Program-made: the position numbers and the translations under genes
The notes under the pieces: model-generated
Database searches by the model: none
The model's input: only the letters and a program-made list of their open reading frames with translations
Told to the model about the DNA's origin: nothing
Assembly (NCBI GenBank): GCA_016184105.1
Contig: JACPDI010000007.1
Span: 69,287-133,286 of the forward strand
DNA: 64,000 bases
Direction of reading: 5' to 3'
Source of the DNA: Acidobacteriota bacterium
GTDB lineage: Bacteria; Acidobacteriota; Vicinamibacteria; Vicinamibacterales; 2-12-FULL-66-21
Shown: piece after piece, positions 30,030-38,219 of the stretch
Layout of the letters: every line of letters begins with the position of its first letter
Numbering within the stretch: position 1 is the stretch's first letter

Positions 30030-30197
30030 TTACCCGCGCGAGGTTTCCTGCGCGGCGCGCCGGGCGTCAATCTCCCGCTGCCCGCGGAGAATCGAGCACC
30101 ACGGCTTATGGTCGTGCACGGGCATGCCGCATTCGACGCAGACGTGAATCCGCTTGGGCGGCTCCCCCCTGCCAATCAGGCGTTTCCAGAATGTCAT
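30030..30197 (-). CDS. 55-aa Cys/His-rich small protein (possible zinc-ribbon); not in the ORF track
   Basis: My translation is MTFWKRLIGRGEPPKRIHVCVECGMPVHDHKPWCSILRGQREIDARRAAQETSRG*. A GGAGAGGG RBS lies 6-8 nt upstream of the ATG at 30197. It sits 88 nt downstream of the small cytochrome-like gene on the same strand. Confidence 0.45.
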   Translation of the reverse strand: MTFWKRLIGRGEPPKRIHVCVECGMPVHDHKPWCSILRGQREIDARRAAQETSRG

Positions 30198-30285: not shown

Positions 30286-30708
30286 CTACTGGCGGCTCGC
30301 CGCCAGCTTGTACTCGTAGAGTTCCTTCTTGCGGATCTTGGAGTCGTAGACCGCGAACTCGTAGATCTCCATGGCGTCGGCCGGGCTGATCATGGCGCGC
30401 CCCGCCCGGCGCATCATGCGCTTGATGTAGCGCTCCCAGTCGTCCTCGAGCACGAAGTCGCAGTTGACCGCGCGCGCCAGCGGGTGGCACTTGCCGCCGC
30501 ACCGGTCGGCGAAGATCTTGTACTTGCGCTTCATCTCGGGCGTGTATTTCGACACGTCAATCTTGTCCGGCCCGGCGTCCCACGAGATCACCTTCTTGTC
30601 GAGCGGGCGGTCGTCGTAGATCTGCGAGCCGATCACCCGGACCGACACGGCGGCCGTCAGGACCATCGAGACGAACACCATTGCCACCAGTACCTGCTTC
30701 ACGGTCAT
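30286..30708 (-). CDS. Small membrane-anchored protein with CX3CH motif (putative variant monohaem cytochrome), paralogue 1
   Basis: It has a GGAGGA RBS, the N-terminal TM segment MTVKQVLVAMVFVSMVLTAAV, and the motif CGGKCH followed by PLARAVNCDFVLEDDWERYIKRMMRR. Confidence 0.7.
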   Translation of the reverse strand: MTVKQVLVAMVFVSMVLTAAVSVRVIGSQIYDDRPLDKKVISWDAGPDKIDVSKYTPEMKRKYKIFADRCGGKCHPLARAVNCDFVLEDDWERYIKRMMRRAGRAMISPADAMEIYEFAVYDSKIRKKELYEYKLAASRQ

Positions 30709-30742
30709 CCTCCGAACGTGAATGTGTTGACGGGGTCGTGCG

Positions 30743-31156
30743 CTACTCCGATCCCTGTTCCTTCAGCCGGCGCTCGTACAGCTCGCGCTTGCGGACCTTC
30801 GCATCAAAGACCGCGAACTCGTAGGACTCGAGCGCCTGCGCCGGCGTGATGAGCGAGCGGCCGCGGCGCATCATCCGCTTGATGTACCGCTCCCAGTCGG
30901 CTTCGAGGACGAAGTCGCAGTTGACGGCGCGCGCCAGCGGGTGGCACCGCGCGCAGAGGTCTTCGAAGGTCTTGTACTTCTTCCTGATGTCCGGCGGGTA
31001 CTTCGACACGTCGATCTTTCCCGGGCCGCTGTCCCACTGCACGATCAGCGGATCGATCTGTCGTGCCGCGCCGGACTGTTGTGCCTGTGCGAGCAGCAGC
31101 CGCGCGGGCATCGCGAGGGCCATTATCAATACGGCTGCAGACAGAATCCGGGGCAT
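30743..31156 (-). CDS. Small secreted protein with CXXCH motif (putative monohaem cytochrome), paralogue 2
   Basis: It has a GAGGAG RBS and a signal peptide ending in LLLAQA. The motif CARCH is followed by PLARAVNCDFVLEADWERYIKRMMRR, and the core aligns residue-for-residue with paralogue 1. Confidence 0.7.
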   Translation of the reverse strand: MPRILSAAVLIMALAMPARLLLAQAQQSGAARQIDPLIVQWDSGPGKIDVSKYPPDIRKKYKTFEDLCARCHPLARAVNCDFVLEADWERYIKRMMRRGRSLITPAQALESYEFAVFDAKVRKRELYERRLKEQGSE

Positions 31157-31201: not shown

Positions 31202-33376
31202 TTACCACGTCCAGATGAACCGCACGGCGGCGGACTTCGCGGTGTACGGCCGCAGGACGTAGCCCAGCAGGAGGCTGCCCGGCAGGTCGATCCGGTTCAG
31301 CGTCTCTGGGCTCATGGCAAAATCGTCCACGTCGTACCTGTCGTACCAGCCGAGCAGCCCGATCGCGACCCGGCGCGACAGGTGGAACCGCAGATCGCCG
31401 GTCGCAGACGTCAGGTCGTGAGTGATCGCCGGCAGCTGTACCGGCGCCACCAGCGTGCTGTCGGCCGGCAGCCGATACACGTACGTCGCGCGCGAGCGCG
31501 AGTCGTCGAACGACATGCTGACGTCGACCCTCGGCAACAGCCTGAGGAGATCCAGGGAGAAGCCGATCGTCTCGGTGCGGTCGGCGCTGTCGGTCGCCCA
31601 GTCGCGCCGGTGATCGACGATGAGCGCGGTGCCCGGCACCAGGGTGGAGTGCGAGTTCTGCAGCGCCGCAAAGCGCTCGTTCGTGTACGACACGCTCGCC
31701 GCGACACGCGACCCCGGCGTGATGTCGGCGGTCACGGTGTACGACTTGTTCTCGTTGTTCCTCAGCCCCAGGGCGCTGTTCAGGTAGTCGTCCTTCCCGT
31801 ACGACGCGGACGCCGTCAGGCCGAAGGCGTCCACCGGCGCCAGCTGGATCAACGCCGTCACGCGGTCGCGGTCGCGATCGGCGACGTCGAAGTGGCGGAG
31901 CCCGAGCTGTTCGGTCGCCGAGAGCAGCAGATGCTCGTCGAAGCCGGATCCCCGCCGCTGCGAGCGCTCGAGGATCGCGCGGACGGTCACGAAGCCGGCC
32001 GACGAGTCGACCGACGCGCGCACGAGGTCCTCAGTCGTCTTCTGGAAGATGCGGAAGGTGCGATCGTCGGTGTTGCGCGAGTACCCGATCCGCATCGCGG
32101 TGAGCGGCACGGGCGTGAACGACGCGTCGGCGTCGAAGTTGTAGCGCGTGAAGCTCAGGGGTTCGGTCTCGGCACCCTCGTGCACGGTCTGGTCGAACAC
32201 GACGTCGATCGGGGTGTGGAACACGGGCGTGCGATTGTCGAAGTCGTAGGATCGGAACCGTGCGCTGAGGAAGACATACCGCGTCGGCTGCGAGGTGAAC
32301 CCGACGTTGGTCGCCACCGTCCGCGCGTCCCCTTCAAGCGTCTCGCGGGGCAGCGGCGCCGCGGGCACCGCGGTGTTGATCGTCACCGGCAACAACTGCG
32401 CGTCCTGGGTCCACGCGCCGAACGTCATGCTGGCCGTCACGCGGCTGTTGGCCGGCAGCTTCGCCGTGCCGGACGCGGTGATCCCCTGCATGCGGCTGTC
32501 GGGCGGCATCGCCATGCGCCCGCGCGATCCGCCGAGCCCGTTCGAGTAGTTGTTGGAGGCGGTCGAGTCGGTGAGCTTCAGCGGGTTGTCCCACACCAGC
32601 GTGGGCACGTTGTTCTCGAACGCCGATCCCTGGTAGCCCACGCGCACCATGCCGCGCGCGTTGGCCCACTCCACGCCGCCGCTCACGTCGGTCGTGCGCG
32701 TGTCGAGCGGCGCCATGACCTCGACGACGTCCGCGAAGCCGAATGACGCGGTCTGCGGGTACGTCCCGTCGCGCCGTGTGTGCTTCACGCCGAGGCTCAC
32801 GGTGAGCTCGCGTGTCGGGCTGTACGCCAGGTCGACCCTGGCGATATCACGCCGGGAGGTGGCAGCCATCGGCGACGCCGCGCCCGCCGACTGCGACAGG
32901 GTCGCGCGTCCCGCCTGGATCGCCGCGCGCATCGCATCGTCCAGGCGCAGCACGCCTGGCGACTCGCTCGTGTAGAGCGTGCGCGTGTCGCCGCTGATCC
33001 AGAGCGGGATCTGGTCCCACTCGACGGACACGCGGACCTTCGATCCGTTGCGGAAGGTGGCGGACAGCCGCCGGTCTTCCGCGCTCAGATGGTCGCCGCT
33101 GGCATTGAACGTCCAGCCGGTCCCCTGGCGATCGAGCGTGAAGTGCTCGACCACGAGGCCGTCACTGAAGTCGCGGTACCGCTGGAAGCGGTACTTGTCG
33201 CCCGTGACATCGGTGAAGCGGCTGCCGGCGTCGAACGACGCGGCGAAGCCCTGCGGCGCGGCGAGCTGCGCGGCGGAGGGAACGAAGATCTGCTGGCCGG
33301 GGTCGTTCTGCTGCGCCGAGGCCGCCGCGCCCGTGAGAAGAAGTCCGGCTGCGACAAACGTCAGTGGGGTGCGCAT
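31202..33376 (-). CDS. MtrB/PioB-family outer-membrane beta-barrel (decahaem-associated porin)
   Basis: The start MRTPLTFVAAGLLLTGAAASAQ (signal peptide) lies 17 nt after the cytochrome stop. The roughly 724-aa product has alternating beta-strand character and a C-terminal aromatic end (...RFIWTW). The track ORF extension to 34189 overlaps the cytochrome gene in another frame and is rejected. Confidence 0.75.
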   Translation of the reverse strand: MRTPLTFVAAGLLLTGAAASAQQNDPGQQIFVPSAAQLAAPQGFAASFDAGSRFTDVTGDKYRFQRYRDFSDGLVVEHFTLDRQGTGWTFNASGDHLSAEDRRLSATFRNGSKVRVSVEWDQIPLWISGDTRTLYTSESPGVLRLDDAMRAAIQAGRATLSQSAGAASPMAATSRRDIARVDLAYSPTRELTVSLGVKHTRRDGTYPQTASFGFADVVEVMAPLDTRTTDVSGGVEWANARGMVRVGYQGSAFENNVPTLVWDNPLKLTDSTASNNYSNGLGGSRGRMAMPPDSRMQGITASGTAKLPANSRVTASMTFGAWTQDAQLLPVTINTAVPAAPLPRETLEGDARTVATNVGFTSQPTRYVFLSARFRSYDFDNRTPVFHTPIDVVFDQTVHEGAETEPLSFTRYNFDADASFTPVPLTAMRIGYSRNTDDRTFRIFQKTTEDLVRASVDSSAGFVTVRAILERSQRRGSGFDEHLLLSATEQLGLRHFDVADRDRDRVTALIQLAPVDAFGLTASASYGKDDYLNSALGLRNNENKSYTVTADITPGSRVAASVSYTNERFAALQNSHSTLVPGTALIVDHRRDWATDSADRTETIGFSLDLLRLLPRVDVSMSFDDSRSRATYVYRLPADSTLVAPVQLPAITHDLTSATGDLRFHLSRRVAIGLLGWYDRYDVDDFAMSPETLNRIDLPGSLLLGYVLRPYTAKSAAVRFIWTW

Positions 33377-33393: not shown

Positions 33394-34572
33394 TCACCGC
33401 TCGAGGTACTGGCCAGACGGGTGGTTCGACCCGTGGAGATTCGGGTGGCAATTGACGCAGGCGCGTCCGACCAGCCGGTTGTTGCGGTTGGCGAGCGCCA
33501 CGCGGTCGTAGATCGTCGCCGGGTGTCGCGACACGATGTGGCAGCGCTGGCAGAGCATCGGGGCCTTGGCCACGAGCATCCGGTCGTTCGAAGAGCCGTG
33601 CGCGTCGTGGCAGGTCGCGCAGCTCTCCCGCACGGGCGCGTGCTCCCACATGAACGGGCCGCGCTTCTCGGCGTGGCAGCTCAGGCAGGATTCGTTGATC
33701 GTGTTGCCCGCCTTCAGCAGGCGCACGTTCGTCGTGCCGTGCGGGCCGTGGCAGGAGGTGCAGTCCATCTTGCCCTCGCGCACCGGCATGTGCGCCGAGC
33801 GCTGGAGCTTCGCGGCCTTCTCGCGGTGGCATCGCGCGCAGGTGGCGACAATCGTCGCCCCGCGCAGGTGGCCGTCCGTGGATTTCGGATCGTGGATGCT
33901 GTGGCAGCCGGCGCACGGCACGTTGCGCGAGGCATGCACGCTGCCCTGCCACTGCGCGTGCTCGCCGCGGTTGTGGCACGAGAGGCAGAACTCGCTGGCC
34001 TCGCGCGGCGACATCTTGACGAACGGGCGCAGCAGGAGCCCTTTCTCCGCCGGCTCGTCGTCGTGCGCCTGGCCCGGGCCGTGGCAGGTCTCGCAGCCGA
34101 GCGACGCGGCCGGCGTCCGCTCGTCCCACTCGCGGCCGTGCGGCCCTTCGCGGTACGCCTTCAACTGCTTCATGTGGCACCGCGCGCACTTCGCCGTGCC
34201 CGTGTAGGTGAACCTGCGCGTCCGGGGCGCGTCCGGCTCCTCGTCATCGGCCTCGAAAGGATTCGTCGGCTTGGCCGCCTTCTGTCCCGGCGCCGCGCCC
34301 TCTTCTTCCTCTTCTTCCTCCTCGTCCGGATCGAGAAATGGATTGCGTTTCGGCTCCGGCGCGGGCGCCGGTTCCGGTGCGGACGGCGCGGGCTTCGGCG
34401 CCGCCTGGCCCGATGGCGGCGGCTGCGGCGGTGGCGTCTGCGGGGCGGAGAACGCCAGGCTCACCATCGCGGCAAAAGTCCAGCAGATGACCCCCGCGAC
34501 GATCGCGACAGCCGGACGGCTCGGCACCCGCCGAAGCAGGTGCGCCCTCGCGGGCGTGTTGGATGGCGTCAT
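33394..34572 (-). CDS. Periplasmic decahaem c-type cytochrome, MtrA/DmsE/PioA family
   Basis: I counted ten CXXCH motifs: CARCH, CETCH, CLSCH, CAGCH, CARCH, CTSCH, CLSCH, CATCH, CQRCH and CVNCH. It has the family-typical C-terminus HGSNHPSG. I chose the start MTPSNT (GAGGAG RBS, signal peptide). Confidence 0.9.
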   Translation of the reverse strand: MTPSNTPARAHLLRRVPSRPAVAIVAGVICWTFAAMVSLAFSAPQTPPPQPPPSGQAAPKPAPSAPEPAPAPEPKRNPFLDPDEEEEEEEEGAAPGQKAAKPTNPFEADDEEPDAPRTRRFTYTGTAKCARCHMKQLKAYREGPHGREWDERTPAASLGCETCHGPGQAHDDEPAEKGLLLRPFVKMSPREASEFCLSCHNRGEHAQWQGSVHASRNVPCAGCHSIHDPKSTDGHLRGATIVATCARCHREKAAKLQRSAHMPVREGKMDCTSCHGPHGTTNVRLLKAGNTINESCLSCHAEKRGPFMWEHAPVRESCATCHDAHGSSNDRMLVAKAPMLCQRCHIVSRHPATIYDRVALANRNNRLVGRACVNCHPNLHGSNHPSGQYLER

Positions 34573-34774: not shown

Positions 34775-36175
34775 TCACGCCGCTGCCAGCCTTTCGGCCC
34801 TCGTGGCCACGTCCCGGAACTGGGGACCGACCTCCGCGAGCAATTCGCGATAGACACCGAGTGCCTGCGACTCCTGGCCGATCGCCTCGAGCGTCAGGGC
34901 GAGCTGATAGGCAAGCTCGTGCCCGCCTTCCTCCGTGGCTGGCGGCACCTGCGCGACCCACTCGAGGCACGCAAGCGCGTCCATCGGGGCGCCGCGATCG
35001 CGGTACACGCCCGCGAGGCGCGAGCCGGCGCTCGCGCGCAGGTGCGGCGCGCACATGGCTTCCTCGAGCGATGCGACTGCCGCGTCGAACTGCTGCGACT
35101 CGATCAGGCGCTCCGCCTCCGTGAGCCGCTCCTCCGCGGCAGCCGCCGCCTCTTCGATGAGCGCCGTGCGAATCTCCTCGAAGGCCGAGTCCACGTCGCT
35201 CGCCGGTGCCGGCTTGGGCGGGACGTCCGGCACCGCTTCGCTGACGTCTCGTGCCCGGCTGACCCGCGCCAGCAGCCCGCGATGCGCGGCGGCGTCGGGC
35301 TCGCGCTCGGTCAGATCGACCGCGATGTTGTAGGCCTGTTCCGTGCGCCCGCAGTCGTAGCACGCGCCCGCGAGGCGCGCCTGCGCCGAGATGAGCGCGC
35401 GGTCGAGCCGCCCCTCGACGCCGACGTCGATGAGCTTCTCGAGCGCCTCGATGTGCTGCGGCTGCGAGGCGAGGAACTGCTCGATCGCCGACACGGCGCC
35501 GGTGAAATTGCGACGCGCCACTTCGCCGTCGGCCGCGAGGATCACCTGGCGGAAATCGTACAGGTCGTCATCGACTGCCACCGCCGGTGACGGGTCCGGC
35601 GCCGGCACGACACCGGACTCGACCGCCTCCTGATCAGGCGCCAGGACCGCCGCCCACTCGTCCGCCCACTCGCTGGAACTCGCGGGCATCGCCGCCGCCG
35701 CCGGAACGTCGCGCGGCGGCGGCGGCGCGGGCAGCCGTGTCTCCTCGACGCGCATCGGCTCCGGCGGAGCGTCCGGCTCCACGACCGCGCTCTCGCGTGC
35801 GGCCCTCGCGGTCTCGAGTACCCGTTTGAGGAACGGGCTGACCTGGGCCGATTCGTTGCGCTCGAGTTCGTCCACGCGGCGGCGGGCGGTCTCGTTGTCA
35901 GGCTGGATGCGAAGAATCTTCCGATAGAGGGCGCGCGACTTCGCCGCGAACCCGTCGGCCGCCAGGTGCTCGGCAAGCGACGTGAAGTGCGCGATGGCGG
36001 CGTCCGCCTTGCCGGTGCGAATGTACAAATCCCCCAGCGTGTTGCCGATGCTCCAGTCCTTCGAATCGTTCTGAAACAACTTTTCGTACAGTGTGACCGC
36101 GCCGTCCAGGTCGCCGCGCGTGACGAGGCGGGCCGCCTTGTCGACGAGATCGGAGCGATCCAGGGCGCGAGCCAT
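34775..36175 (-). CDS. TPR-repeat protein
   Basis: The start MARALDRSDL lies 2 nt after the upstream stop. It has repeated TPR-like helical pairs at both ends (GDLDGAVTLYEKL..., ALACLEWVAQ...) and a Pro/Ala-rich middle. Confidence 0.7.
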   Translation of the reverse strand: MARALDRSDLVDKAARLVTRGDLDGAVTLYEKLFQNDSKDWSIGNTLGDLYIRTGKADAAIAHFTSLAEHLAADGFAAKSRALYRKILRIQPDNETARRRVDELERNESAQVSPFLKRVLETARAARESAVVEPDAPPEPMRVEETRLPAPPPPRDVPAAAAMPASSSEWADEWAAVLAPDQEAVESGVVPAPDPSPAVAVDDDLYDFRQVILAADGEVARRNFTGAVSAIEQFLASQPQHIEALEKLIDVGVEGRLDRALISAQARLAGACYDCGRTEQAYNIAVDLTEREPDAAAHRGLLARVSRARDVSEAVPDVPPKPAPASDVDSAFEEIRTALIEEAAAAAEERLTEAERLIESQQFDAAVASLEEAMCAPHLRASAGSRLAGVYRDRGAPMDALACLEWVAQVPPATEEGGHELAYQLALTLEAIGQESQALGVYRELLAEVGPQFRDVATRAERLAAA

Positions 36176-36177
36176 GT

Positions 36178-37161
36178 TCACACTGCCGCGGCCACCCGGC
36201 CGTCCGCGTCCTGCGGCACGGCGCCGGGACCCGCGATGATGGCGTCGACATCCAGCAAGGCGACCGCGTCGCCCGCGACCGAGAAGATTCCGCGCGTGAA
36301 CCACTCGCGGCGCTCGACCTCAGCGTGCCGCCGATCGGCCGCGGTCGCACGATGGAGCGCGACGTCCGCCCCGACGCGGAACGCGAAGAAGCCGCCGCGG
36401 CCGCGACCTCCGGATCGCGCCACCAGGAACCGTTCCGAGCCGTTGACGTCCGCGCCGTGTTCCCCGTTGAACCGCAGGATCGGCACGGCGTGGTCCCGCC
36501 ACCATCCGACCGCATGGATGTGCGGCGCCGCACCCGGCAGCGGGATCCAGGGCAGCGACTGGACGATGCCTCCCACGCGATCCGCGGCCAGGGCGTACCT
36601 CGCTGCGTGCACGCTCGGCAACGCGGCGCTCGTGAACGTCAGCGCCATGCCGGAGGCGACCGCACCCGTCCTCCCGCCCGCTGGCTGCGCGATCGGCGGC
36701 GTGGCGCGGCGCGGCGCGGCGGGCGCCAGCGGATCGATGCCCCGTGGCGAGAGAACGAGGCAGAACACGACGTCCCCCATCCGCAACAGCCCGTCGAACC
36801 ACGCCGAGGGCGTCGCGCCGGCCGCCGCGGGGAGCGGCAGCAGCGCGGGCGATCCGGCAGGAGTGCGCACGATGCGATCGACGAGCAGGCCGAACGACTC
36901 GCCGTCGCCTCGCGTCACGATGACGTAGCGGTCGGCGACCGACGACTCGGGCGCGCGTCCGAACAGTCCCGACAGGCCGTAGACCGGCAGCGTTTCGGCG
37001 CCGTACCGCAACGTGCCGACGCGGTTCGCAGGCCCCGCCCCTTTCTTCACGTATTCCGCGCGGGCGACGACGCGGATGTCGGCGCCGGCGAGCGCGTACT
37101 GTTCCATTCCCACGACGCAGCAGATGAAGCCACCAAGTCCGGATTTCCGTTCACCTGTCAT
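36178..37161 (-). CDS. CheW-like coupling protein with two CheW-type domains (ChpC position)
   Basis: It shares an ATGA overlap with the cheB stop. It has two segments resembling the CheW fold (...YALAGADIRVV...LVDRIV... and ...YALAADRVGGIV...). Only the last 327 codons of track ORF 36178-38154 are used. Confidence 0.65.
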   Translation of the reverse strand: MTGERKSGLGGFICCVVGMEQYALAGADIRVVARAEYVKKGAGPANRVGTLRYGAETLPVYGLSGLFGRAPESSVADRYVIVTRGDGESFGLLVDRIVRTPAGSPALLPLPAAAGATPSAWFDGLLRMGDVVFCLVLSPRGIDPLAPAAPRRATPPIAQPAGGRTGAVASGMALTFTSAALPSVHAARYALAADRVGGIVQSLPWIPLPGAAPHIHAVGWWRDHAVPILRFNGEHGADVNGSERFLVARSGGRGRGGFFAFRVGADVALHRATAADRRHAEVERREWFTRGIFSVAGDAVALLDVDAIIAGPGAVPQDADGRVAAAV

Positions 37162-38219
37162 GACGACTGCCCCCGCATGGCGAGCATCGAGCCGATGACA
37201 TCGGGCGTGCCGACGAAGTCGGCGCCCGCGCGTTCGAGCGCCTGCGTCGGCATGCTGTCGATCACGCAGCTCGAGGGCTCCTGCACGTACGCGTCGCCGC
37301 CGCGCTGCCGCACGCGCTTCAGCCCCTCGGCCCCGTCGCGCCCCATGCCTGACAGCACGACGCCCACGCTCGATGCGCCGTAGCTTTCCGCCGCCGAAAC
37401 CATCGCGAAGTCGATGGAGGGCCGGTACAGTTCCTCTTCTGCCGTCGGCCGCAATTCCAGCCGGCCTCCGGGGCGCACCAGCAGGTGGCGCGAGCCGGGC
37501 GTGACGATGATCGATCCGCGGGCGAGCCCGACCCCCGCGTCCGCCTCTCGGACCGGCAAGCGGGCATAGCGCCCAAGTTCCGCGGCGAAGGCGGTCGTAA
37601 ACGTCGCGGGGAGGTGCTGGACCACCACGCAGGGGATCCGGAAATCGGACGGCAGCTGCGCGAGGAGCTCGCGGAGCGCCGCCGGACCGCCCGTCGAGGC
37701 CCCGATCACGATGATCCCTTCGTGACCTGGCGCGGTCCTCGGGCCGTGCAGGCGCCCGCGCGGGTCGGGGTGACGGACGGGCGGACGCGCGACGGCCCGT
37801 TCCGGTTTCCGCGCATGGCGCGGCCGGACGGTGGCGGCCGTCATGACCTTGCTCACGATCTCCCTGCGCAGCGTCGCGGGGCTGACGGGCGCGCCCGGCG
37901 TGTACTTCAGGACGAAGTCCACCGCTCCCACCTCCAGCGCCCGCAGCGTCGTCGCGGCCGCGCGGCGCGACACGCCGCTCACGACCACGACGGCGGCGGA
38001 GGTTTCGGCCACGATTTGCCGCAGCAGCCCGAGGCCTTCGGCTCCAGGCATCTCGAGGTCCAGCGTGAGCACGTCGGGCGACGTGCGGCGGACGAGATCC
38101 ATCGTCGACGCCGCGTTGTGCGCGGTGCCGACCACCTCGCAGTCGCCGGCGCACTCGAGGTACGAGGCCAGCAGGCGGCAGGTGAATGCCGAGTCGTCGG
38201 CGACGGCCACTCGGATCAC
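37158..38219 (-). CDS. cheB: Protein-glutamate methylesterase CheB (REC + methylesterase)
   Basis: It has the REC motifs IRVAVADDS and DVLTLDLEMPG, and the esterase motifs IGASTGGP, HLP..FT and GMGRDG. Confidence 0.9.
   Translation of the reverse strand: MIRVAVADDSAFTCRLLASYLECAGDCEVVGTAHNAASTMDLVRRTSPDVLTLDLEMPGAEGLGLLRQIVAETSAAVVVVSGVSRRAAATTLRALEVGAVDFVLKYTPGAPVSPATLRREIVSKVMTAATVRPRHARKPERAVARPPVRHPDPRGRLHGPRTAPGHEGIIVIGASTGGPAALRELLAQLPSDFRIPCVVVQHLPATFTTAFAAELGRYARLPVREADAGVGLARGSIIVTPGSRHLLVRPGGRLELRPTAEEELYRPSIDFAMVSAAESYGASSVGVVLSGMGRDGAEGLKRVRQRGGDAYVQEPSSCVIDSMPTQALERAGADFVGTPDVIGSMLAMRGQSS

What the first reader, a model, noticed from the sequence alone, without database searches (positions are those of the whole stretch)
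30286..31156. Tandem small paralogues downstream of the barrel: one has CXXCH, the other a CX3CH variant
The two adjacent genes (140 and 137 aa) are roughly two-thirds identical by eye across the core ...KIDVSKY.P....KYK.F.D.C...CHPLARAVNCDFVLE.DWERYIKRMMRR....I.PA.A.E.YEFAV.D.K.RK.ELYE..L. One has a cleavable-looking signal peptide and CARCH. The other has an uncleaved-looking TM anchor and CGGKCH, with one extra residue between the cysteines. I do not recognise the fold as a class I cytochrome c. If haem-binding, they could be the periplasmic or inner-membrane-side partners of the MtrAB-like conduit, the role played by MtoD or PioC elsewhere. Alternatively, the Cys-Cys-His-Cys set could bind a different metal.
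Basis: partly seen in the sequence, partly recalled or inferred. Interest (0 to 1): 0.65.

Follow-up and report, generated by a model that had tools for sequence, protein, structure and literature searches.

The report
Small periplasmic cytochromes partnering outer-membrane electron conduits
The two small tandem genes belong to a widespread family of one-haem cytochromes with no Pfam or NCBIfam model, which almost always sits next to outer-membrane iron-redox "wires" (Cyc2 or MtrAB), so they are most likely the periplasmic electron carriers of this system, and the copy with the odd CX3CH haem motif is a conserved, selected variant, not a decayed gene.

Summary
Two minus-strand genes (30743-31156, 137 aa, CARCH; 30286-30708, 140 aa, CGGKCH) are paralogues: 57% identical overall and 67% over the 90-aa core.

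- **Family.** No Pfam or NCBIfam model claims them. They belong to a large family: 782 clusters at 50% identity, in Acidobacteriota, Opitutaceae, Poribacteria, Latescibacterota and others.
- **Fold and ligands.** Y61, C68, C71 and H72 are invariant and Met95 is nearly invariant. The model is all-alpha. Weak but consistent matches point to class I cytochromes c.
- **Third cysteine.** It is clade-specific (Ser, Ala or Thr elsewhere), which rejects a Cys-Cys-His-Cys metal site.
- **Context.** In 54 of 71 informative genomic loci the gene lies directly downstream of a Cyc2-type fused cytochrome-porin. It lies upstream of Rieske/cytochrome b or ACIII genes. In the window's clade and a few others, MtrAB replaces Cyc2. 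The family therefore fills the Cyc1/MtoD/PioC position.
- **CX3CH copy.** It defines a supported subclade, always paired with a CXXCH copy after MtrAB and triplicated in one contig. It is under purifying selection (dN/dS 0.17-0.28). The motif arose a second time independently.
- **Maturation.** The genome has CcmE and no ResB, so System I is the expected haem-attachment route.

Haem binding, redox potential and a membrane anchor for copy B remain untested.

The parts
30743..31156 (-). Paralogue A: 137-aa secreted monohaem c-type cytochrome. Signal peptide about residues 1-25 (…LLLAQA|QQ). CARCH at residues 68-72 (30941-30955). Candidate distal ligand Met95, followed by Met96.
   Evidence: ORF and sequence. 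Family invariants. AF2 model pLDDT 84, all-alpha. RBS GAGGAG 8 nt upstream of the ATG (read).
30286..30708 (-). Paralogue B: 140 aa from the ATG, probably 138 aa from the GTG at 30702. CGGKCH (CX3CH) at residues 70-75 (30484-30501). Long hydrophobic N-terminus without an A-x-A site. Keeps every family-invariant residue.
   Evidence: CX3CH subclade with 99% support. dN/dS 0.17-0.28 against orthologues.
31202..33376 (-). MtrB/PioB-family outer-membrane beta-barrel, 724 aa, 45 nt upstream of paralogue A.
   Evidence: PF11854 8.1e-86; TIGR03509 2e-71.
33394..34572 (-). MtrA/DmsE-family decahaem cytochrome (ten CXXCH motifs).
   Evidence: TIGR03508 1.1e-75; motif count.
34775..36181 (-). TPR protein that always precedes MtrA in this clade. 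It links the conduit genes to a CheA/CheB/CheW-type cluster.
   Evidence: Pfam TPR hits; the same order in L001, L002, L004, L100, L101 and L102.
30030..30197 (-). Conserved 55-aa Cys/His (zinc-ribbon-like) ORF, 88 nt downstream of paralogue B.
   Evidence: 79% identical ORF after the small cytochromes in L100, and 62-67% identical ORFs in L001, L002 and L003.

Best explanation
Both genes encode Sec-exported monohaem c-type cytochromes of a divergent class I-like family that has no Pfam or NCBIfam model. Haem would be attached by the genome's Ccm (System I) machinery to the two cysteines. His72 would be the proximal ligand and the near-invariant Met95 the distal ligand (inferred). They are made from the same operon as MtrA and MtrB. 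They would carry electrons across the periplasm between the periplasmic end of the outer-membrane conduit and inner-membrane quinone-linked complexes or oxidases. That is the job done by Cyc1, MtoD or PioC in known iron-oxidising systems.

Copy A is the soluble carrier. Copy B is a conserved, selected sister form with a one-residue insertion in the haem motif (C-G-x-[KRQ]-C-H). It is possibly tethered to the inner membrane by an uncleaved N-terminal helix, giving a soluble plus tethered pair.

Shown here: paralogy, family conservation, synteny, purifying selection, and presence of CcmE. Inferred: haem attachment, His/Met ligation, direction of electron flow, and the anchoring of copy B.
For: **Family conservation.**
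- The family has 112 to 470 clusters at 90% identity and 782 representatives at 50% identity.
- Y61, C68, C71 and H72 are invariant. D42, G44, Y53, F64, R76, N79, W88, M95 and F114 are at least 90% conserved across 99 diverse members.

**Cytochrome c signal.**
- Pfam sub-threshold hits recur: Cytochrome_CBB3 in 77 of 99 members (best 1.3e-5), PscC cytochrome c-551 PF10643 in 52 (best 3.6e-10), and Cytochrom_C in 26 (best 8.9e-6).
- A PDB profile search returns only c-type cytochromes, aligned on the N-terminal helix plus CXXCH.
- The AF2 model (pLDDT 84) has as its best fold match the SorB cytochrome c, 2blf_B (probability 0.89, TM 0.63).

**Synteny.**
- 54 of 71 informative loci have a Cyc2-type gene directly upstream on the same strand. 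The gap in the 12 loci checked is -6 to +42 nt.
- The Cyc2 identity of that neighbour is supported three ways: the AXPXFAR[Q/K][T/Y] motif before CXXCH plus PXL after it; length of at least 365 aa in nearly all (criteria from PMC8406198); and an AF2 model with 16 long strands.
- Downstream, 56-61 of 80 loci carry FeS-flavoprotein, Rieske, cytochrome b and hexahaem genes, and 11 of 80 carry ACIII.
- In the window's clade the order CheA-CheB-CheW-TPR-MtrA-MtrB followed by 2-4 small cytochromes recurs in independent MAGs and contigs.
- Intergenic gaps in the window are 45 and 34 nt, with no promoter-like or terminator-like site between the genes.

**Copy B.**
- The CX3CH clade has 99% support and is nested among CXXCH sequences. 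A second, independent CX3CH member exists (P0145).
- There are three tandem CX3CH copies in L100, and dN/dS is 0.17-0.28, the same as for copy A.

**Maturation.** CcmE is present and ResB is absent in this genome. CX3CH and CX4CH are counted as haem-binding motifs in current iron-oxidiser genomics (PMC10734462).
Against: - There is no experimental haem evidence, and I found no transcription evidence for this organism. The only RNA run holds short fragments from relatives.
- All matches to known cytochrome c families are below curated thresholds. The Foldseek E-value is only 0.77.
- Most MtrAB loci lack this family. Only 1 of the 5 MtrAB pairs in this genome has it. In the phylum sample, only 7 of 112 MtrB-positive genomes have it. 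It is therefore not an obligate MtrAB partner.
- In the window no inner-membrane complex is adjacent, so the electron acceptor or donor is unknown.
- Engineered changes in Cys spacing give aberrant haem attachment by E. coli Ccm (Sawyer et al. 2010, as cited in PMC3601427). Clean maturation of CX3CH here is therefore assumed, not shown.
- Five Poribacteria loci show no redox context.
Confidence: 0.7

Rival explanations
1. They are accessory or docking subunits of the outer-membrane conduit rather than freely diffusing shuttles. In this reading the conserved N-terminal D-x-G-P-x-x-I-D-V-S-x-Y-P segment binds the periplasmic face of MtrA/MtrB or Cyc2, and the haem extends the wire by one step.
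For: The gene lies immediately after the conduit gene, often with overlapping or nearly abutting coding regions. A family-specific N-terminal segment that ordinary class I cytochromes lack is conserved (D42, G44, Y53). The partnership holds for two unrelated conduit types, Cyc2 and MtrAB.
Against: Opitutaceae loci place the gene at the far end of the cluster from cyc2, next to the flavoprotein and Rieske genes. Most MtrAB systems work without it. Multi-domain relatives with 5-9 repeats look like carriers or wires rather than docking subunits.
Confidence: 0.15
2. Copy B is a degenerating or haem-free paralogue. The extra residue between the cysteines blocks haem attachment, and the protein is non-functional or has a non-redox role.
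For: CX3CH is rare in the family: 9 of 151 close clusters and 0 of 149 family domains among the distant representatives. Engineered changes in Cys spacing give aberrant products with E. coli Ccm (cited in PMC3601427).
Against: dN/dS is 0.17-0.28, equal to copy A. All family-invariant residues are kept, including Cys, Cys, His and Met. The gene is tandemly triplicated in L100. The same C-G-x-K-C-H solution arose independently in P0145. In every locus with DNA or gene calls, the B-type gene sits in the same place after an A-type gene.
Confidence: 0.1
3. The Cys-Cys-His-Cys set binds a non-haem metal or forms a thiol-redox site.
For: Three cysteines and one histidine are conserved within the close clade (C80 in 138 of 147 domains).
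Against: Across the wider family, position 80 is Ser, Ala or Thr in 110 of 121 domains and Cys in only 8. It is Ser even in one copy of a tandem array (L001_8920). Only C68, C71 and H72 are invariant. Every database signal points to c-type cytochromes.
Confidence: 0.03

Closest known systems
MtoD of Sideroxydans lithotrophicus (mtoA-mtoB-mtoD-cymA cluster)
   Same: A small secreted monohaem class I-type cytochrome c encoded directly after an MtrAB-type decahaem and barrel pair. It is proposed to shuttle electrons from the conduit to the inner membrane (PMC13741234).
   Different: No sequence or fold match to MtoD appeared in the PDB profile search or the Foldseek search. From my own knowledge, MtoD is bis-His ligated, whereas this family conserves a Met. 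This family also has an extra conserved N-terminal D-G-P…IDVS-YP segment and occurs in tandem copies.
Cyc1 / Cyc1PV-1 (cyc2-cyc1 gene order in Acidithiobacillus rus operons; Cyc2PV-1 to Cyc1PV-1 model in Mariprofundus)
   Same: It is the gene immediately after cyc2, and is proposed to be the periplasmic c-type carrier between Cyc2 and bc1, ACIII or the oxidase (PMC13741234, PMC10654088). In 54 of 71 loci this family occupies exactly that position.
   Different: Acidithiobacillus Cyc1 is a dihaem cytochrome c4, whereas this family is monohaem and about 135 aa. I could not test homology to Cyc1PV-1 here. The downstream partners are a Rieske/cytochrome b complex with an FeS flavoprotein and a hexahaem cytochrome, not cox genes.
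PioC of Rhodopseudomonas palustris (pioABC)
   Same: It is the third gene after a PioA/PioB conduit and acts as a periplasmic one-electron carrier.
   Different: PioC is a HiPIP iron-sulfur protein, not a cytochrome, so only the role and gene position are shared.
Class I cytochromes c (Pfam clan members Cytochrome_CBB3, Cytochrom_C, PscC c-551; SorB, PDB 2blf_B)
   Same: N-terminal helix followed by CXXCH, an all-alpha fold and a downstream Met. Recurrent weak profile hits and a best fold match support the link.
   Different: All hits are below the curated cut-offs. The Met lies only 23 residues after the His and is predicted to sit at the end of a helix. There is an extra conserved N-terminal segment. 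One subclade uses CX3CH.

Membership tests
c-type cytochrome (covalent haem) | CXXCH (or an accepted variant) haem-attachment motif that is conserved across homologues | tested here: met
   C68, C71 and H72 are invariant in 95 close and 99 diverse members. 140 of 151 close clusters have CXXCH and 9 have CX3CH.
c-type cytochrome (covalent haem) | Export to the periplasm and a haem-attachment machinery in the genome | tested here: met
   N-terminal signal-like sequences occur throughout the family. CcmE is found in the genome at 4.2e-21, above the cut-off, and ResB is absent. Signal-peptide cleavage was judged by eye only.
c-type cytochrome (covalent haem) | Haem actually bound covalently | not testable with these tools
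   This needs haem stain, pyridine haemochrome or mass spectrometry of expressed protein.
Class I cytochrome c (Pfam clan of PF00034 / PF13442) | Significant match to a class I profile | tested here: inconclusive
   The window proteins score only E 0.14 to PF13442. Across the family, 77 of 99 members hit PF13442 at E up to 1 (best 1.3e-5), PF10643 reaches 3.6e-10 and PF00034 reaches 8.9e-6. All were listed below or without reference to the gathering score. PDB profile hits have E of at least 0.03.
Class I cytochrome c (Pfam clan of PF00034 / PF13442) | Class I fold: N-terminal helix to CXXCH, Met sixth ligand, C-terminal helix | tested here: inconclusive
   The AF2 model is all-alpha, with helix 55-68 ending at CXXCH. 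Met95 is at least 90% conserved. The best Foldseek hit is SorB cytochrome c (probability 0.89, TMt 0.63), but the E-value is 0.77.
MtoD family | Detectable homology to MtoD (solved structure) | tested here: not met
   MtoD is not among the 39 PDB profile hits (E up to 10) or the top 50 Foldseek hits. Only the gene position and proposed role are shared.
Cyc2 fused cytochrome-porin (the usual upstream neighbour, not the finding itself) | AXPXFAR[Q/K][T/Y] motif about 5 aa before CXXCH, PXL after it, at least 365 aa, and a 16-strand barrel (PMC8406198) | tested here: met
   Examples of the motif: AIPAFARKY…C..CH…PRL in L012 and L014, and AIPAFARQL in L009. 54 loci were found by motif or phmmer. 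The AF2 model of the L027 protein has a signal peptide, a short haem region and 16 long strands, with pTM 0.78. No Pfam or NCBIfam model exists for it.
MtrAB/PioAB/MtoAB porin-cytochrome conduit (the window's upstream neighbours) | Decahaem DmsE/MtrA-family cytochrome followed by an MtrB/PioB barrel | tested here: met
   TIGR03508 at 1.1e-75 with ten CXXCH motifs; PF11854 at 8.1e-86 and TIGR03509 above its cut-off.

The most novel reading that the evidence does not exclude
This may be a previously unrecognised, phylum-spanning adaptor cytochrome that couples either type of outer-membrane iron conduit (Cyc2 or MtrAB) to an unusual inner-membrane module. That module comprises an NAD(P)-type FeS flavoprotein, Rieske protein, cytochrome b and a hexahaem cytochrome, or else ACIII. 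The conserved cluster cyc2, small cytochrome, flavoprotein, Rieske, cytochrome b, hexahaem in peat and soil Acidobacteriota (Terracidiphilus, Granulicella, Bryobacteraceae), Opitutaceae and others would then mark a widespread, unrecognised capacity for Fe(II) oxidation, with direct reverse or bifurcating electron flow to NAD(P)+. The CX3CH paralogue would be a naturally selected monohaem cytochrome with non-canonical Cys spacing, tuned to a different potential or tethered to the membrane.
Probability: 0.3. Interest if true: 0.8.

Novelty: new variant of a known kind. Interest (0 to 1): 0.6.

Why it matters
**Marker gene.** Periplasmic carriers are the least defined step of neutrophilic iron oxidation and extracellular electron transfer. 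A family that tracks Cyc2 in 54 of 71 loci, and also MtrAB, across several phyla gives a usable second marker gene for these pathways in soil, peat, groundwater and sponge-symbiont genomes. It also points to abundant Acidobacteriota and Opitutaceae as candidate iron-cycling organisms.

**CX3CH biochemistry.** The conserved CX3CH monohaem subclade arose twice and is under purifying selection. It is a natural test case for how Ccm System I handles non-canonical Cys spacing and how that spacing tunes a haem site.

**Annotation.** The family has no Pfam or NCBIfam model, so it is currently invisible to annotation pipelines.

Tried and rejected
- **Curated families.** Pfam and NCBIfam on the two proteins gave nothing significant.
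- **Cys-Cys-His-Cys metal site.** Rejected by family-wide variation at position 80.
- **Obligate MtrAB partner.** Rejected. Genome-level overlap with MtrB in 401 genomes of the phylum is 7, against about 6.7 expected by chance. Only one of five MtrAB pairs in this genome has the family.
- **Pseudogene reading of copy B.** Rejected by dN/dS and conservation.
- **Broad genome scan.** The search for related loci with the very diverse alignment A2 failed because no conserved stretch was found. I repeated it with A3.
- **Transcription evidence.** The runs that hold this stretch are DNA metagenomes from groundwater, sediment and soil. The one RNA run (rice paddy) holds only short fragments, mostly 85-95% identical, from relatives.
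- **Promoters and terminators.** The scan found none around the two genes.
- **Haem-site geometry.** I could not measure it for A against B, because model coordinates are not returned.
- **Signal peptide versus anchor for copy B.** I could not decide this, because no SignalP or TMHMM is available.
Full report
**1. Observation**

The window holds two adjacent minus-strand ORFs. One is 30743-31156 (137 aa) and the other is 30286-30708 (140 aa). BLASTP gives 57% identity over 124 aa, E 7e-54.

Copy A carries CARCH, encoded at 30941-30955, and a classical signal peptide (…RLLLAQA|QQ). Copy B carries CGGKCH, encoded at 30484-30501, and an 18-residue hydrophobic N-terminus without an A-x-A site.

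Copy B most likely starts at the GTG at 30702. GGAGG lies 6 nt before that GTG but directly abuts the ATG, and the orthologues start with VKQ/VKK.

The intergenic gaps are 45 nt (MtrB to A) and 34 nt (A to B). No promoter-like or terminator-like site lies between them. Upstream on the same strand are:
- an MtrB/PioB barrel (PF11854, 8e-86);
- a DmsE/MtrA-family decahaem cytochrome (TIGR03508, 1e-75, ten CXXCH motifs);
- a TPR protein.

**2. What the proteins are**

Neither protein matches a curated family. The best hit is Cytochrome_CBB3 at E 0.14. They are not orphans, though. Homology searches returned 112 and 470 clusters at 90% identity. A profile search of 1.84 billion representatives returned 782 proteins at E up to 1e-3 and 401 at E up to 1e-10.

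Conservation is as follows:
- In 95 close members the invariant residues include D42, G44, Y53, C68, C71, H72, R76, N79, F82, W88-E-R-Y, K93, M95, M96 and F114.
- In 99 diverse members Y61, C68, C71 and H72 stay invariant. D42, G44, Y53, F64, R76, N79, W88, M95 and F114 stay at 90% or more.
- This is the pattern of a monohaem c-type cytochrome with His and Met axial ligands.

The AlphaFold2 model of copy A (pLDDT 84, pTM 0.70) is all-alpha, with helix 55-68 running into the CXXCH. Its best PDB fold match is the SorB cytochrome c subunit of sulfite dehydrogenase, 2blf_B (probability 0.89, target TM 0.63, but E 0.77).

A profile search of PDB sequences returns only c-type cytochromes (c1, mitochondrial c, c549/c550, CcoP). 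All are aligned on the helix plus CXXCH, at E of 0.03 or weaker.

Scanning 99 members against Pfam gives recurrent sub-threshold hits:

| Pfam family | Members hit (of 99) | Best E-value |
|---|---|---|
| Cytochrome_CBB3 | 77 | 1.3e-5 |
| Dehyd-heme_bind | 56 | 1.3e-6 |
| PscC cytochrome c-551 (PF10643) | 52 | 3.6e-10 |
| Cytochrom_C | 26 | 8.9e-6 |

I conclude that this is a divergent class I-like cytochrome c family without a model of its own.

It fails because the third Cys (C80) is conserved only in the close clade (138 of 147 domains). Among representative domains it is Ser, Ala or Thr in 110 of 121 and Cys in only 8. It is Ser even in one copy of a tandem array.

**3. Genomic context is the main functional evidence**

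*Close relatives.* Independent MAGs and metagenome contigs (all named ones Vicinamibacterales) repeat the same order. That order is CheA-CheB-CheW-TPR-MtrA-MtrB followed by two, three or four small paralogues (L001, L002, L004, L100, L101, L102 and a JGI contig).

*At phylum scale the picture changes.* The family occurs in 24 of 401 sampled genomes and MtrB in 112 of 401. The overlap is 7, which is about what chance would give. Reading the neighbourhoods showed why. In more distant members the gene directly follows a 400-490-aa protein whose N-terminus reads …AIPAFAR[KQ][YL]…C..CH…P.L.

*That neighbour is Cyc2.* Keffer et al. 2021 (PMC8406198) define the Cyc2 fused cytochrome-porin by four features:
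- AXPXFAR[Q/K][T/Y] about 5 residues before CXXCH;
- PXL after the CXXCH;
- a length of at least 365 aa;
- a 16-strand barrel.

The neighbour meets the sequence criteria. An AF2 model built from 38 of these proteins shows a signal peptide, a short haem region and 16 long beta-strands (pLDDT 75, pTM 0.78). Pfam and NCBIfam have no model for it.

*Wider genome scan.* A scan of 185,579 species genomes with the pattern CHT[LI]ARPIN found 273 loci. The best 80 come from:
- Acidobacteriota (Vicinamibacteria, Thermoanaerobaculia, and Terriglobia including Terracidiphilus, Granulicella and Bryobacteraceae);
- Opitutaceae, Poribacteria, Latescibacterota and Gemmatimonas;
- Nitrospinota, Elusimicrobia, Eisenbacteria, Omnitrophota and Armatimonadota.

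Among 71 informative loci, 54 have a Cyc2-type gene immediately upstream on the same strand. In the 12 loci checked the gap was -6 to +42 nt.

Downstream partners:
- 56-61 of 80 loci carry a GltD-like FeS flavoprotein, a Rieske protein, cytochrome b and a hexahaem cytochrome c.
- 11 of 80 carry ACIII (pentahaem ActA, ActB1, ActB2, ActC).
- Four loci (L021, L024, L028, L038; Acidobacteriota, Latescibacterota, Gemmatimonas) place the small cytochrome next to or near MtrA/MtrB-like genes and ACIII genes.
- Opitutaceae keep the same gene set in another order.
- Five Poribacteria loci show no such context.

The family therefore sits, in most lineages, between an outer-membrane electron conduit and an inner-membrane quinone-linked complex. 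That is the position of cyc1 after cyc2 in rus operons, of Cyc1PV-1 in the Mariprofundus model, of MtoD after MtoAB and of PioC after PioAB (PMC13741234, PMC10654088).

**4. The two paralogues and the CX3CH motif**

A maximum-likelihood tree of 109 family members shows the following.
- Both window proteins fall in one clade with 99% support (27 rows). Every member of known context in that clade is MtrAB-linked.
- Inside it, A-type genes (first after MtrB) and B-type genes (second) form separate groups. The duplication therefore predates the divergence of these genomes.
- The eight CX3CH sequences form a clade with 99% support, nested among CXXCH sequences. Its sisters L004_8001, P0081 and P0088 have CARCH or CSRCH.
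- P0145, outside the 27-row clade, has CGVKCH with an ordinary signal peptide. The one-residue insertion therefore arose at least twice, both times as C-G-x-K-C-H.

In L100, one CXXCH copy is followed by three tandem CX3CH copies. Pairwise dN/dS among CX3CH genes is 0.17-0.28, the same as for A-type orthologues (0.17-0.24). All family-invariant residues are retained. Copy B is therefore a functional, selected protein.

The genome encodes CcmE and no ResB, so System I is the maturation route. CX3CH and CX4CH are routinely counted as haem-binding motifs (PMC10734462). Engineered changes of spacing can nevertheless give aberrant products in E. coli (Sawyer et al. 2010, as cited in PMC3601427). 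Clean maturation here still has to be shown.

The N-terminus of the B clade (…MMFVSMVLTAAVSVRVVGSQIYDDRPLD) is strongly conserved and lacks the AQA-type site of copy A. A cleavage after V-x-G cannot be excluded. I rate a signal-anchor (tethered) form at about 0.4.

**5. Mechanism proposed**

- *Shown:* two co-oriented, tightly spaced paralogous genes after mtrAB; a conserved CXXCH plus Met family with class I-like features; synteny with outer-membrane conduits and with bc or ACIII complexes; purifying selection on both copies; a Ccm system in the genome.
- *Inferred:* both proteins are exported and receive one covalent haem. They would carry single electrons between the periplasmic haem of MtrA and inner-membrane acceptors or donors. 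Copy A would be a soluble carrier. Copy B would be a variant with an altered haem pocket and perhaps a membrane tether, as in known soluble plus tethered cytochrome c pairs.
- *Direction of flow:* the family's dominant association with Cyc2 and the likely His/Met ligation suggest Fe(II) oxidation or electron uptake rather than Fe(III) reduction. This is not established.

**6. Caveats**

- This genome has five MtrAB pairs (contigs C68, C36 twice, C25, C3) and only the window's pair carries these genes.
- The C3 pair lies next to ACIII with a different cytochrome c between them.
- A Cyc2-like gene plus a Rieske/cytochrome b cluster on C69 has no copy of the family.
- The family is therefore an optional partner.
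- No RNA data exist for this organism.
- Every similarity to known cytochrome families is below the curated thresholds.

**7. Novelty**

The kind of component is known: a small periplasmic c-type cytochrome serving an outer-membrane conduit. The following are not described in the curated libraries or in the papers I could search:
- the family itself;
- its breadth across phyla;
- its near-fixed position after cyc2;
- its link to a flavoprotein, Rieske, cytochrome b and hexahaem module;
- a selected monohaem CX3CH subclade.

An earlier agent's note on the neighbouring MtrAB finding also called these "two small cytochromes of an undescribed family". I list that as agreement, not as support.

Noticed in passing
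window 30030-30197 (-): A 55-aa Cys/His (C-x2-C … H-x-H … C) ORF just downstream of paralogue B is a real conserved gene. A 79% identical ORF follows the small cytochromes in L100, and 62-67% identical ORFs lie a few kb downstream in L001, L002 and L003. There is a weak NCBIfam hit to YacG (E 0.004).
   Followed up: partly
L040-L099 (e.g. L040:6562-13477); also G000 contig C56:108377-113387: A highly conserved cluster recurs in peat and soil Acidobacteriota and other phyla: cyc2, small cytochrome, GltD-like NAD(P)-type FeS flavoprotein, Rieske protein, cytochrome b, hexahaem cytochrome c. Its make-up resembles Rieske/cytochrome b complexes with an NAD(P) oxidoreductase subunit (known from anammox bacteria, from my own knowledge). 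It suggests Fe(II)-driven NAD(P)+ reduction.
   Followed up: partly
window 34775-38219 and beyond; L001, L002, L004, L101, L102: The CheA(hybrid)-CheB-CheW-TPR genes always directly precede MtrA-MtrB and the small cytochromes in this clade. This suggests a functional link between a chemosensory (Pil-Chp-like) system and the electron conduit.
   Followed up: no
P0190, P0286, P0294, P0274: Multi-domain relatives carry 3 to 8 tandem repeats of the same cytochrome domain (303-533 aa, one CXXCH per repeat). They look like poly-cytochromes built from this family.
   Followed up: no
G000 contigs C36 (91370-94264 and 130096-133322), C25 (44540-47661), C3 (18026-27303), C69 (33395-39935): The genome has five MtrA/MtrB pairs. 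The C3 pair directly follows an ACIII operon and a multi-domain cytochrome c. C69 carries a Cyc2-like gene next to Rieske, cytochrome b and multihaem genes, without a small cytochrome of this family.
   Followed up: partly
L008 (G198:C40:5000-24000): In a genome of the same order, the single family member is flanked by a QrcA/ActA-like pentahaem cytochrome and an ordinary class I cytochrome c. A two-component regulator and a divergently oriented MtrA/MtrB pair lie about 3 kb away.
   Followed up: partly
L068, L081, L086, L087, L096 (Poribacteria): Sponge-symbiont Poribacteria carry a 119-120-aa member of the family. No Cyc2, MtrAB, Rieske or ACIII gene lies within 8 kb.
   Followed up: no
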